Of a stretch of 64,000 bases of DNA, positions 61,267 to 63,794 are shown in pieces (the stretch's first letter is position 1; each line of letters begins with the position of its first letter). The position numbers were made by a program, and so were the translations under genes. Location: assembly GCF_009914755.1 (NCBI RefSeq), contig NC_060947.1. One strand, 5' to 3'. Source of the stretch: the human T2T-CHM13v2.0 reference genome, Homo sapiens. The notes under the pieces are model-generated. The model made no database searches and was not told where the DNA came from. It saw only the letters and a list, made by a program, of their open reading frames with translations.

Positions 61267-61622
61267 AAATTAAAAAATCAGCCAGGCATGATGGCATGCA
61301 TCTGTAGTCCTAGCTACTCAGAAGGCTGAGGCAGGAGGCTGAGGCAGGAAGATCACTTGGGCCCTGGAGTTTGAGGCTGCAGTGAGTCATGCAGACTCAA
61401 ACTCAGCTTGGGTGACATAGCCAGACCCTGTCTCTAAAAAAATAACTAGGTACAAATTTCATCCTTAAATGTAAACAACCAATCGTGTTCACTTTGGTTG
61501 CCCAAAGACTACAAAAAGCTCAGGGGCTCTGCCCTTAGGCCTGGCAGTGAAGCAGTTCCCAGGCAGAGTTTCTGTTTTCAAGGGTGCTCAGGATTTGGAG
61601 AAAAGTTCCTTTCAGTAACTGA
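61267..61622 (+). repeat. Left arm of 356-bp inverted duplication (Alu right monomer plus ~180 bp non-Alu)
   Basis: Reverse complement matches 63439-63794 with 6 substitutions and no gaps by manual alignment. Confidence 0.95.
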
Positions 61623-62551
61623 AATTAGCTACTTGTCCCTGTGTAAGCTAGACATCACGAGGTTAATAGATAATGGATGAAGAGGCCAAATACCTCATCC
61701 TTAGCTGTGGAGAGCTTATAAAATAGTCCCTTTATTCTCATCTTTATCTTTTAATCCTGAATCCTTAGACTAGTTGACTTTATCATTACAGAATACCTTT
61801 TCTTACCCTCTTGACATGTCAACTACAAATACTGTTTCCTGGACTTTGTTTCTAAAGTCTGAAGTGTTTTTATGTTTCTACTTGTGACATGTATGCCCCA
61901 CCCCCCCCCCCAACATTTGACAGTCCTTATTTCACTAGGGTTGCCTATGGGACATAAGGAAAGATGTTACCTATCCTAAGACATAGTAACCTGGTAAAAT
62001 CTTATAGTGAAATAATAGGAACTTTATGAATTTGCATTGTGTAGAAAGGATTGATGGTAGAAATAATTTAGAGATTTCAAGCTTCTTCCTTTTTAGTCTG
62101 TGCCTGGGCTTTGTTTTTTGTTTTTTAAATTTTGGAGATATGCCACTGATTTCTAATTCCTGCCAAATTGCCACATGCCTCTTTAAGAGCCATCAGTAGG
62201 AAGGTGTCTATATCATTAGGAAACCCTGTTTTGTAGTTGTACCTTTGTTGATCTCTTTTTGAGACTTTTGTTTGTTTGTTTCTTGTTCTTATCAGGCAGA
62301 CCCTGAACCAGAATAGGTTCAGAGAGGCTCTGATAGTTGTACTTTTGTTCCAGCAGAATGTGTGGACTTAAATTCTTAGAGTGATACTTTGAAAAAGAAT
62401 TTGTTATTGTTTAGGACTCAGCATTTTGACCAGTCATAATTTAATACGCTAAGTCAGTGGTGAATGGGGAAACATGTATTATATTTAATAATTGTCAAGG
62501 TAAATGATTTATGATGTTGATAATTCATTTACTGATCTGTTTTCTTTTCAG

Positions 62552-62682
62552 GTGTTTTGGGGAACGAGTTTAGTATATTAAAATCACCAGGGTCTGTTGT
62601 TTTCCGAAATGGAAATTGGCCTATACCAGGAGAGCGGATCCCAGACGTGGCTGCATTGTCCATGGGCTTCTCTGTGAAAGAA
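62552..62682 (+). CDS. ATP6AP2: ATP6AP2 coding exon 2 (131 nt, c.38-168)
   Basis: Branch-like tactgat (62530-62536), pyrimidine tract tttcttttcag|, reads (G)[43 protein letters not shown], donor GAA|gtatgt. Confidence 0.97.
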
Positions 62683-63438
62683 GTATGTATATATTTTTTA
62701 AATGTTTGGAGCTGCTTTTAAGAACATTTTTACTGATTTCTGCTAATAGCCCAAAAAAGCATCAAACGAACGTAGGTACGTTTGGTACAGATTACAAAAG
62801 TTAAAAAGCTCATCTGGACCAGGCACAGTGGCTCACGCCTGTAATCCCGGCACTCTGGGAGGCCGAGGTGGGAGGCTCAGTTGAACCCAGGAATTTGAGA
62901 CCAACCTGGGCAACATAGTGAGACTCCCATCTCAAAAATAAATGAATTAATTTTTTAAAAACCCATTTGTAGTTGGGAAGATTTTGGATGAGTGCTTCAA
63001 GCTTGGCTTCTGAAACAAATCATTAGAAATCATTAACTATATAATTATTTATTCATAGTAGTGAAATTCTTTGTATATTAGAGAATGCATCTGTCCTACT
63101 CTTAATAGGATATCTACTTTCTGGTTTTTTTTTTTTAGTATAGGCGATAGATTCACTATGAATGATAAAATATATATGCATTATGCCTGAGGTTAGGAAA
63201 ATAATGTGGTCAGTAGCCATGGGGCAGCCAAGGACCTTGGTTTCCTAGAATGGAGCTATGACCTGTTGTAGTAATTGGCTGCTTATGTGATTGTAGGGGG
63301 CGGGAGGGTCTAGATCCAGTCAATGTGAGAGATCGAAAGGTAAGGGCTCAGAAGAAAGGAAATACAGCTTGCTCGGTGCTATCATCTCCTTCTCTTTGTA
63401 AGTCTGGTGCTTTTGATGTGGTCTCTAGATATATATCA

Positions 63439-63794
63439 TCAGTCACTGAAAGGAACTTTTCTCCAAATCCTGAGCACCCTTGAAAACAGAAACTCTACCT
63501 GGGAACTGCTTCACTGCCAGGCCTAAGGGCAGAGCCCCTGAGCTTTTTGTAGTCTTTGGGCAACCAAAGTGAACACGATTGGTTGTTTACATTTAAGGAT
63601 GAAATTTGTACCTAGTTATTTTTTTAGAGACAGGGTCTGGCTGTGTCACCCAAGCTGAGTTTGAGTCTGCATGACTCACTGCAGCCTCAAACTCCAGGGC
63701 CCAAGTGATCTTCCTGCCTCAGCCTCCTGCCTCAGCCTTCTGAGTAGCTACGACTACAGATGCATGCCATCACGCCTAGCTGATTTTTTAATTT
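63439..63794 (-). repeat. Right arm of 356-bp inverted duplication
   Basis: Reverse complement of 61267-61622. Confidence 0.95.

What the first reader, a model, noticed from the sequence alone, without database searches (positions are those of the whole stretch)
61267..63794. Near-perfect 356-bp inverted duplication brackets ATP6AP2 exon 2
Seen: 61267-61622 is the reverse complement of 63439-63794 at 350/356 positions with no gaps, including perfect runs of about 145 and 107 bp. The 1816-bp spacer holds exon 2. About half of each arm is non-Alu, and both arms share a private internal Alu duplication (ggctgaggcagga twice), so these are not two independent Alus, which would be far more diverged. 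Established: complementary flanking intron sequences promote exon skipping and back-splicing. Inference: the pre-mRNA can form a long stem that loops out exon 2, acting as a splicing or dosage rheostat or yielding a 131-nt single-exon circRNA. Skipping 131 nt shifts the frame, so the product would probably be an NMD target. I cannot tell whether this has already been described.
Basis: partly seen in the sequence, partly recalled or inferred. Interest (0 to 1): 0.85.

Follow-up and report, generated by a model that had tools for sequence, protein, structure and literature searches.

The report
Inverted duplication flanking ATP6AP2 exon 2
A real, nearly perfect 356-base inverted copy of intron sequence lies on either side of exon 2 of the human disease gene ATP6AP2 and could fold the pre-mRNA into a long hairpin, but it is already listed in a published catalogue and nothing yet shows that it changes splicing.

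Summary
61267-61622 and 63439-63794 are reverse complements at 350 of 356 positions with no gaps, and the 1816-nt spacer holds exon 2. This is not an Alu pair. The non-Alu half occurs only twice in the whole assembly, and all other long inverted pairs shown for the window are 77-87% complementary.

The intron-2 copy is the source, because it holds a complete two-monomer Alu with its 11-bp target-site duplication. The intron-1 copy is a truncated inverted copy with sharp ends.

Folding pairs 351 of 356 arm positions in register. The duplex energy is -710 kcal/mol, against -360 to -384 for ordinary Alu pairs here.

The element is already in print by coordinates. Barak et al. 2020, Table S8, lists hg19 chrX 40446957-40447313 / 40449124-40449480, 356 bp, 98.31%, editing index 0, FPKM 0.0085. 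That also rules out an assembly artefact.

I found no evidence of a human exon-2 circRNA or of a dosage-setting ("rheostat") role.

Most likely this is a young, local, neutral inverted micro-duplication with at most a small effect on splicing. Interest is moderate to low.

The parts
61267..61622 (+). Left arm in intron 1: the derived, truncated inverted copy (one Alu monomer, one copy of the Alu target-site duplication, 168 nt of unique flank)
   Evidence: 350 of 356 matches; a single SRP-like monomer at 61281-61436; sharp junctions
63439..63794 (-). Right arm in intron 2: the source copy, continuous on its outer side with the rest of a complete Alu and on its inner side with unique intron sequence
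63618..63921 (-). Complete two-monomer Alu (minus orientation). Its tail-side monomer lies inside the right arm and its other monomer (63799-63920) lies outside it
   Evidence: SRP-model hits at 63625-63780 and 63799-63920, both minus strand
63607..63617 (+). Target-site duplication of that Alu, tail side (TGTACCTAGTT). Its reverse complement lies in the left arm at 61444-61454
   Evidence: sequence print
63922..63932 (+). Target-site duplication of that Alu, head side (TGTACCTAATT, 10 of 11 alike). It lies outside the arm and has no partner near the left arm
62552..62682 (+). ATP6AP2 exon 2 (131 nt, frame-shifting if skipped). The acceptor is ...ttttcttttcag| and the donor is GAA|gtatgt
   Evidence: hub annotation; (pseudogene mapping)
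61324..61349 (+). Tandem doubling of a 13-nt Alu unit, shared with 63712-63737 (-), so it is older than the duplication or was spread by gene conversion
61623..61627 (+). AATTA just after the left arm, repeating AATTA at 61268-61272 just inside its start. This is possible microhomology or a short target duplication of the insertion
   Evidence: junction print; weak, since it is 5 AT-rich bases
60549..60860 (+). Ordinary Alu in intron 1, predicted to pair with the Alu at 63947-64228 (-) and so form a second, outer stem around the same exon
   Evidence: 191 positions paired with 63947-64228
63947..64000 (-). Start of a further Alu in intron 2 (63947-64228; it runs past the window end). It is the partner of the outer stem

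Best explanation
This is a young, local inverted micro-duplication. It is not a pair of transposon insertions and not an assembly error.

A 356-bp piece of intron 2 was copied in reverse orientation into intron 1, 1.8 kb upstream. The piece comprises the tail-side monomer of an old Alu, that Alu's target-site duplication, and about 170 bp of unique flank. The most likely route is a replication template switch or a microhomology-guided repair event (inferred).

Since then the two copies have diverged by 1.7%. The pre-mRNA can therefore fold into a 356-bp, almost perfect stem with exon 2 in a 1.8-kb loop. That places the locus in the rare class of long, tight intronic double-stranded RNAs.

I judge it most likely a neutral or slightly harmful passenger. 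Exon 2 is normally spliced as a constitutive exon. Any back-splicing or skipping caused by the stem is probably small (inferred, not measured).
For: Shown from the sequence:
- The arms match at 350 of 356 positions, ungapped, with sharp ends.
- The non-Alu half exists only twice in the 3.1-Gb assembly. With a 556-nt query, every other genome hit is 80% identical or less, apart from a few fragments of 33-66 nt at 81-90%, and all of them are confined to the Alu part (40 of 4470 candidates were scored).
- The right copy holds a full two-monomer Alu with 11-bp target-site duplications (10 of 11 alike). The left copy holds only one monomer and one copy of the duplication. This fixes the right copy as the source.
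- AATTA lies at both edges of the insert.
- Divergence is 6 of 356 = 1.70% (Jukes-Cantor), with a Poisson 95% interval of 0.62-3.67%.

The element is independent of this assembly. hg19 carries the same 356 bp at 98.3146% identity with a spacer of about 1811 nt (PMC7006430, Table S8).

Folding: the duplex energy is -710 kcal/mol, against -360 to -384 for five Alu pairs across the exon. In both folds 351 of 356 positions pair in register.

For 'little effect':
- RefSeq gives a single transcript (hub table).
- Published editing index is 0 on both arms, and FPKM is 0.0085 in two pools.
- No human ATP6AP2 circRNA appeared in 3 text searches or in one catalogue supplement.
- Stronger hairpins do not raise circularization (PMC4201285 passages).
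- Partial loss of full-length ATP6AP2 transcript causes X-linked disease (passages in PMC10808393 and PMC5716037), so a strong skipping effect would hardly have been tolerated.
Against: I examined no RNA reads, so 'small effect' is an inference.

The published zero editing comes from poly(A) GTEx pools with almost no coverage of the arms. In addition, 102 of 281 76-mers of an arm are identical in both arms, so some reads cannot be placed.

Long tight inverted duplicates are depleted even in pre-mRNAs (54,479 inverted against 144,989 tandem structures over all species; PMC7006430 text). Survival in a highly expressed gene therefore needs either tolerance or use.

Exon 2 is known to be skippable: c.168+6T>A raises exon-2 skipping (seen only in citing passages of PMC10808393). 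The donor GAA|gtatgt departs from the consensus, as I recall it, at -1 and +4.

The six mismatches are somewhat clustered. The probability of perfect runs of at least 145 and at least 107 nt is 0.023, and of 3 or more mismatches within 44 nt of an end is 0.053 (uncorrected). This could mean gene conversion and an older origin.

The template-switch mechanism rests only on sharp ends and 5 AT-rich bases.
Confidence: 0.6

Rival explanations
1. Working splicing element. The stem forms in vivo and measurably diverts ATP6AP2 pre-mRNA into a 131-nt exon-2 circle, into exon-2-skipped NMD-targeted mRNA, or both. It would thereby trim dosage and make exon 2 unusually sensitive to donor-weakening variants.
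For: - The stem is predicted to dominate all competitors: -710 kcal/mol against -129 to -251 for within-intron rivals, with 351 of 356 positions in register.
- A second, outer Alu stem encloses the same exon.
- The arms lie 929 nt and 756 nt from the splice sites.
- Inverted repeats of 30-40 nt are enough for circularization, and Sry uses long inverted repeats (PMC4201285).
- Inverted intronic Alus made a constitutive exon alternative (PMC2533698 abstract).
- Exon-2 skipping is a known disease route.
Against: - No human ATP6AP2 circRNA in the text searches.
- 0 mentions in the held supplement of Guo et al. 2014.
- One RefSeq transcript.
- Editing index 0 on both arms, although editing is the usual footprint of such pairing.
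- Strengthened hairpins did not increase circularization and sometimes inhibited it.
- A 131-nt exon is short for a single-exon circle (recalled, not checked).
- The gene is dosage-sensitive in males.
Confidence: 0.22
2. Its main consequence is at the DNA level. The 98% identical inverted arms allow homologous recombination that flips the 1.8-kb spacer. That would invert exon 2 and produce a copy-neutral null allele that exome or short-read tests would miss. Alternatively, the arms exchange sequence by gene conversion and stay alike.
For: The arms are 356 bp long with perfect runs of 145 and 107 bp. Mismatch clustering is marginally non-random. Recombination between inverted Alus and other inverted repeats is a known source of inversions (recalled, not checked here).
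Against: Two independent assemblies (hg19 and T2T-CHM13) have the same orientation, the same arm length and the same identity. A text search for ATP6AP2 with 'inversion' found 32 papers; among the 12 listed, no title or abstract start concerns such an allele. The arms are short for efficient homologous exchange (recalled thresholds).
Confidence: 0.08
3. Two independent Alu insertions in opposite orientation (an ordinary inverted Alu pair).
For: Each arm contains an Alu monomer.
Against: - 179 of 356 nt are not Alu, and this part is found only in the two arms genome-wide.
- Identity is 98%, against 67-75% to 37 other Alu matches and 77-87% for the other inverted pairs.
- The left arm lacks the second monomer and the second target-site duplication.
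- The two arms share a private 13-nt doubling.
Confidence: 0.01
4. Assembly artefact of T2T-CHM13.
For: None found.
Against: The same structure is listed from hg19: chrX, 356 bp, 98.3146% = 350 of 356, spacer about 1811 nt. hg19 was built from different DNA by a different method.
Confidence: 0.01

Closest known systems
Long (>300 bp), tight (>96%) inverted duplicated sequences in human pre-mRNAs (Barak et al. 2020, Genome Biol, PMC7006430; also the '>300 bp and >96% paired' set of the dsRNAscan preprint, PMC11838218)
   Same: It meets both thresholds (356 bp, 98.3%) and lies inside a RefSeq transcript. It is itself a row of Table S8. That table has about 197 rows, 11 of them on chrX; I counted these as occurrences of 'chr' and 'chrX' in the file, so the count is approximate. 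dsRNAscan finds 2,018 such structures among 5,134,754 predictions, 88% of them intergenic, with chrX holding the most.
   Different: Most members of that set are inverted LINEs or young Alus. This one is a local copy that is half unique sequence. It brackets a coding, frame-shifting exon of a disease gene, which neither paper discusses in the parts I read.
Intronic complementary sequences that drive exon circularization (inverted Alus at ZKSCAN1, HIPK3, EPHB4: Liang & Wilusz 2014, PMC4201285)
   Same: Reverse-complementary sequence lies in the two introns directly flanking an exon with canonical splice sites. The predicted pairing across the exon is stronger than the pairing within either intron.
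   Different: No back-splice product is known here. The pairing is far longer and cleaner than needed (30-40 nt suffice), and that paper reports that stronger hairpins can inhibit circularization.
Mouse Sry: an exon inside a large inverted duplication, which gives circular Sry RNA
   Same: Non-transposon, near-identical inverted duplicates flank a single exon. About 400 complementary nt were reported as needed (Dubin 1995, as cited in PMC4201285), which is close to the 356 nt here.
   Different: The Sry arms exceed 15 kb and the circle is abundant in testis. Here the arms are 356 bp, the exon is internal to a 9-exon housekeeping gene, and no circle is documented.
Inverted intronic Alus that turn a constitutive exon into an alternative one (Lev-Maor et al. 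2008, PMC2533698)
   Same: dsRNA formed by inverted intronic repeats near an exon as a cause of exon skipping (abstract).
   Different: In that case both Alus lay in one intron upstream of the exon and pairing was shown by editing. Here the arms straddle the exon and the published editing index is 0.
Segmental duplications and X-chromosome palindromes
   Same: Local, high-identity inverted copies on chrX, with possible gene conversion between the arms.
   Different: The arms are 356 bp, far below the usual 1-kb cut-off for segmental duplications and the multi-kb arms of X palindromes (thresholds recalled, not checked). No testis gene is involved.

Membership tests
Long, nearly perfect intramolecular dsRNA in pre-mRNA (Barak 2020 criteria) | Inverted duplicate longer than 300 bp | tested here: met
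   356 nt
Long, nearly perfect intramolecular dsRNA in pre-mRNA (Barak 2020 criteria) | Identity above 96% | tested here: met
   350 of 356 = 98.3%; the same value appears in Table S8
Long, nearly perfect intramolecular dsRNA in pre-mRNA (Barak 2020 criteria) | Both arms lie within one annotated transcript, on the same strand | tested here: met
   Arms lie in introns 1 and 2 of NM_005765.3 (hub table; exon map)
Long, nearly perfect intramolecular dsRNA in pre-mRNA (Barak 2020 criteria) | Pairing in vivo, shown by A-to-I editing or duplex capture | not testable with these tools
   The published editing index is 0 on both arms at FPKM 0.0085. That coverage is too low to decide.
Exon-flanking intronic complementary sequences (circRNA-promoting) | Reverse-complementary sequence in the introns immediately up- and downstream of the exon | tested here: met
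   (929 nt and 756 nt from the splice sites)
Exon-flanking intronic complementary sequences (circRNA-promoting) | Pairing across the exon beats pairing within each intron | tested here: met
   -710 kcal/mol against -129 to -251 for within-intron partners of the arms; the minimum-energy folds keep the arms paired. This is thermodynamic prediction only.
Exon-flanking intronic complementary sequences (circRNA-promoting) | A back-spliced product of the enclosed exon exists | not testable with these tools
   No reads were available. Text searches and one held supplement show none for human ATP6AP2. circBase and circAtlas could not be consulted.
Ordinary inverted Alu pair | Each arm is its own Alu insertion, with Alu-only likeness and family-level divergence | tested here: not met
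   Half of each arm is unique sequence. Identity is 98% against 67-87% for other Alus. The left arm is truncated and lacks its own pair of target-site duplications.
Segmental duplication | Length of at least 1 kb at 90% identity or more (threshold recalled) | tested here: not met
   356 bp, with no likeness beyond the ends
Retrotransposed copy | Poly(A) tail at the 3' end and flanking target-site duplications of about 7-20 bp | tested here: not met
   Neither end of the left arm carries a terminal poly(A) on either strand. Only a 5-nt AATTA repeat flanks it.

The most novel reading that the evidence does not exclude
A great-ape-age inverted micro-duplication has made ATP6AP2 exon 2 the loop of one of the longest near-perfect hairpins in any highly expressed human pre-mRNA. 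The hairpin would continuously divert a fraction of transcripts into an exon-2 circle or into frame-shifted, NMD-degraded mRNA. It would explain why a mild +6 donor change is enough to cause disease. At the DNA level, it would occasionally flip exon 2 by recombination between the arms, giving a copy-neutral null allele that is invisible to exome sequencing in unsolved X-linked intellectual disability or parkinsonism.
Probability: 0.12. Interest if true: 0.6.

Novelty: new member of a known kind. Interest (0 to 1): 0.3.

Why it matters
ATP6AP2 is an X-linked, dosage-sensitive gene. Nearly all of its neurological disease alleles act by exon skipping, including exon 2 (passages in PMC10808393).

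A lineage-specific hairpin that loops out exon 2 could be a hidden modifier of that skipping. It could also be a source of a circRNA, or a substrate for a cryptic exon-2 inversion.

The test is clean, because the left arm is the derived copy. Deleting it restores the ancestral intron.

If, as I think more likely, the stem has no measurable effect, the locus is still a useful natural example. It would be a 356-bp, 98% paired intronic dsRNA tolerated in a housekeeping gene, which bears on how cells neutralise long intronic dsRNA.

Tried and rejected
- Alu pair: rejected.
- Assembly artefact: rejected, because hg19 lists the same structure.
- Dispersed repeat family in the non-Alu half: rejected. 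Only 2 matches exist genome-wide. The tool skips very common words, and one search scored 40 of 4470 candidates.
- Known RNA gene in the arms: the Rfam scan of 60000-64000 at E up to 1 gave only SRP/Alu-type and Alu-derived miRNA-family hits, all below their gathering scores, and nothing in the non-Alu half.
- Retrotransposed copy: rejected, with no terminal poly(A) and no proper target-site duplication.
- Inversion with staggered breaks as the origin: rejected by reasoning, since exon 2 in the spacer is still in the sense orientation.
- Polarising the four Alu-part mismatches with other Alus as outgroup. At 61283 and 61310 the left arm keeps the majority base, so the change is on the right arm. 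61288 and 61418 are ambiguous. This is too little to test gene conversion.
- Literature on a human ATP6AP2 circRNA. 'ATP6AP2' + 'circRNA' gave 24 papers. I opened two of them (PMC8845387 and PMC12203874); both name ATP6AP2 only as a miRNA target or an mRNA. 'circATP6AP2' variants gave 2 papers, on cattle and rat. 'ATP6AP2' + 'circular RNA' + 'host gene' gave 5 papers, none relevant by title or abstract.
- 'ATP6AP2' + 'A-to-I' + 'editing' gave 3 papers, none on these introns.
- 'c.168+6T' gave 0 papers.
- Edelman 2022 (PMC10012809) is not held. Baseline exon-2 skipping in controls therefore remains unseen.
- Closed supplements: those of PMC11838218 and PMC4617279. They might list this structure or an ATP6AP2 circRNA.
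Full report
**1. Is it there?**

Yes. The repeat finder reports arms 61267-61622 and 63439-63794, 356 nt, 98% complementary, 1816 nt apart.

A base-by-base comparison gives 350 of 356 matches with no gaps. The mismatches are at 61283, 61288, 61310, 61418, 61564 and 61617. Five are transitions and one is a transversion. In RNA, one of them (61418) would be a G-U pair. 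The 80 nt beyond each of the four ends match only at random level, so the ends are sharp.

**2. Is it more than chance or ordinary repeats?**

- The window has 130 inverted pairs of 150 nt or more. Of the 25 longest shown, the other 24 are Alu-Alu pairs at 77-87% complementarity, and only this pair reaches 98%.
- The Alu half of the arm is 67-75% identical to 37 other Alu matches of 100 nt or more, found in the window plus the 17 kb fetched downstream of it.
- The non-Alu half (61440-61622) has exactly two matches in the whole 3.1-Gb assembly, and these are the two arms.
- With the arm plus 100 nt on each side as the query, every other genome match is 80% identical or less, apart from a few fragments of 33-66 nt at 81-90%, and all of them are limited to the Alu part. 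The tool scored 40 of 4470 candidates and skips very common words.
- The doubled 13-nt unit is found only in the two arms.

**3. Anatomy and polarity**

The Rfam SRP model serves here as an Alu-monomer detector. All of its hits are below the gathering score, as expected for Alus. It marks one monomer in the left arm, at 61281-61436 (+). On the right it marks two adjacent monomers, at 63625-63780 and 63799-63920 (-). The second of these lies outside the arm.

The right-hand Alu is complete and is flanked by an 11-bp target-site duplication: TGTACCTAGTT at 63607-63617 and TGTACCTAATT at 63922-63932. The left arm contains only the tail-side monomer, the tail-side copy of that duplication (61444-61454) and 168 nt of the unique flank.

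So the intron-2 copy is the original locus. The intron-1 copy is a truncated, inverted copy that starts in the A-rich linker of the Alu.

The insert has no terminal poly(A) on either strand. It is bounded by a 5-nt AATTA, at 61268-61272 and 61623-61627. I read this as a replication template switch or a microhomology-guided repair insertion. That is an inference from sharp ends and 5 AT-rich bases.

**4. Age**

Six differences in 356 nt give 1.70% (Jukes-Cantor), with a 95% interval of 0.62-3.67%. Using primate X-chromosome divergences that I recall rather than computed, this suggests a great-ape-age event.

The mismatches are mildly clustered towards the outer end. The probability is 0.023 for two perfect runs as long as those seen, and 0.053 for three or more mismatches within 44 nt of an end (uncorrected). 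Gene conversion and an older origin therefore cannot be excluded. No primate genome could be searched with these tools.

**5. Gene context**

A processed ATP6AP2 pseudogene on chr1 (locus L006, found) aligns to the locus exon by exon. It places exon 2 at 62551/2-62682, exon 3 at about 64801-64932 and exon 4 at 70815-70910.

| Feature | Length |
|---|---|
| Intron 1 | 7887 nt |
| Intron 2 | 2118 nt |
| Left arm end to acceptor | 929 nt |
| Donor to right arm start | 756 nt |
| Right arm end to exon 3 | 1006 nt |

Exon 2 is 131 nt, so skipping it shifts the frame. Its donor is GAA|gtatgt. The T at +6 (62688) is the position of the published c.168+6T>A variant.

**6. Predicted RNA structure**

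- The arm duplex is -710 kcal/mol.
- Five ordinary Alu pairs across the exon give -362 to -384 kcal/mol.
- Partners of the arms within their own introns give -129 to -251 kcal/mol.
- Minimum-energy folds of 2728 nt and 4311 nt both pair 351 of 356 left-arm positions with the right arm in register.
- In the larger fold, the Alu at 60549-60860 (+) also pairs with the Alu at 63947-64228 (-) at 191 positions. Exon 2 therefore sits inside two nested stems.

These are equilibrium predictions. They ignore co-transcriptional splicing, helicases and editing.

**7. What is in print**

*Barak et al. 2020* (Genome Biol, PMC7006430; I read main-text passages and Additional file 1). [quoted passage not shown] It contains this row: chrX 40446957-40447313 / 40449124-40449480, length 356, identity 98.3146. 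The editing index is 0 on both arms and FPKM is 0.0085, both in a 15-tissue pool and in a muscle pool.

The values 98.3146% = 350/356, the same arm length and the 1811-nt spacer identify it as this repeat in hg19. The offset to the gene start also fits hg19 coordinates of ATP6AP2 that I recall but did not check.

The table has about 197 rows, 11 of them on chrX. I counted these as occurrences of 'chr' and 'chrX' in the file, so the count is approximate.

So the repeat is already catalogued, though not by gene name ('ATP6AP2' occurs 0 times in the supplements). In the passages I read, there is no mention that it brackets an exon. The listing also shows that the repeat is not an artefact of T2T-CHM13.

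The zero editing is weak evidence, for two reasons:
- Coverage was just under the 0.01 FPKM that the authors used to call a structure expressed.
- 102 of 281 76-mers are identical in the two arms.

*The dsRNAscan preprint* (PMC11838218; passages read). It finds only 2,018 of 5,134,754 predicted human dsRNAs that are longer than 300 bp and more than 96% paired. Of these, 88% are intergenic, and chrX has the most.

**8. Function**

Established facts:
- Inverted repeats of 30-40 nt in flanking introns suffice for circularization.
- Mouse Sry uses inverted repeats of more than 15 kb, with about 400 nt reported as needed.
- Stronger hairpins do not raise circularization and can inhibit it, and ADAR may oppose it (PMC4201285 passages).
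- Inverted intronic Alus can make a constitutive exon alternative (PMC2533698 abstract).

For ATP6AP2 itself, I found exon-2 skipping only as the effect of c.168+6T>A. I saw this in citing passages in PMC10808393. The original papers were not available.

I found no human ATP6AP2 circRNA in three text searches. The held supplement of Guo et al. 2014 has 0 mentions. A search for ATP6AP2 with 'inversion' listed nothing on an exon-2 inversion (12 of 32 papers listed).

Because partial loss of full-length transcript is pathogenic in males, a strong effect of a fixed hairpin is unlikely.

**9. Verdict**

- The functional part is untested, and on balance the effect is probably small.
- The element is a member of known kinds: long tight intronic dsRNA, and exon-flanking complementary sequence. 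It is already listed in a published table.
- New here are the source-and-copy polarity, the non-retrotransposon origin, the nested double stem, and the link to an exon whose skipping causes disease.

Noticed in passing
L006 (G000:C1:196483376-196486597), match at C1:196484876-196485097: A processed ATP6AP2 pseudogene on chromosome 1 carries all nine exons joined without introns. Identity to the exons is 79-96%, and there is 1 TAA inside the Renin_r domain match. I used it to map the exons beyond the window.
   Followed up: partly
window 57641-58620: A cluster of three to four abutting or nested Alus, all in minus orientation, in intron 1. Their predicted pairing with the plus-strand Alus at 59143 and 60549 (-354 to -382 kcal/mol) is as strong as any Alu pairing across exon 2. 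Ordinary Alus here therefore have within-intron competitors, while the 356-nt arms do not.
   Followed up: partly
window 62818-62935: A lone Alu-like monomer (plus strand) lies in intron 2, between exon 2 and the right arm. It is a weak within-intron partner for the outer monomer of the Alu at 63799-63920 (-152 kcal/mol).
   Followed up: partly
window spacer 61623-63438 against hg19: The spacer is 1816 nt in T2T-CHM13 but 1811 nt by the hg19 coordinates in Barak Table S8. The difference probably lies in homopolymer runs, such as the C run near 61907-61921 or the T run near 63127-63139. I did not resolve it.
   Followed up: no
window 62683-62688: The exon-2 donor GAA|gtatgt departs from the consensus, as I recall it, at -1 and +4. 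It would therefore lean on +5 and +6, which fits the pathogenic c.168+6T>A variant. I computed no splice-site score.
   Followed up: no
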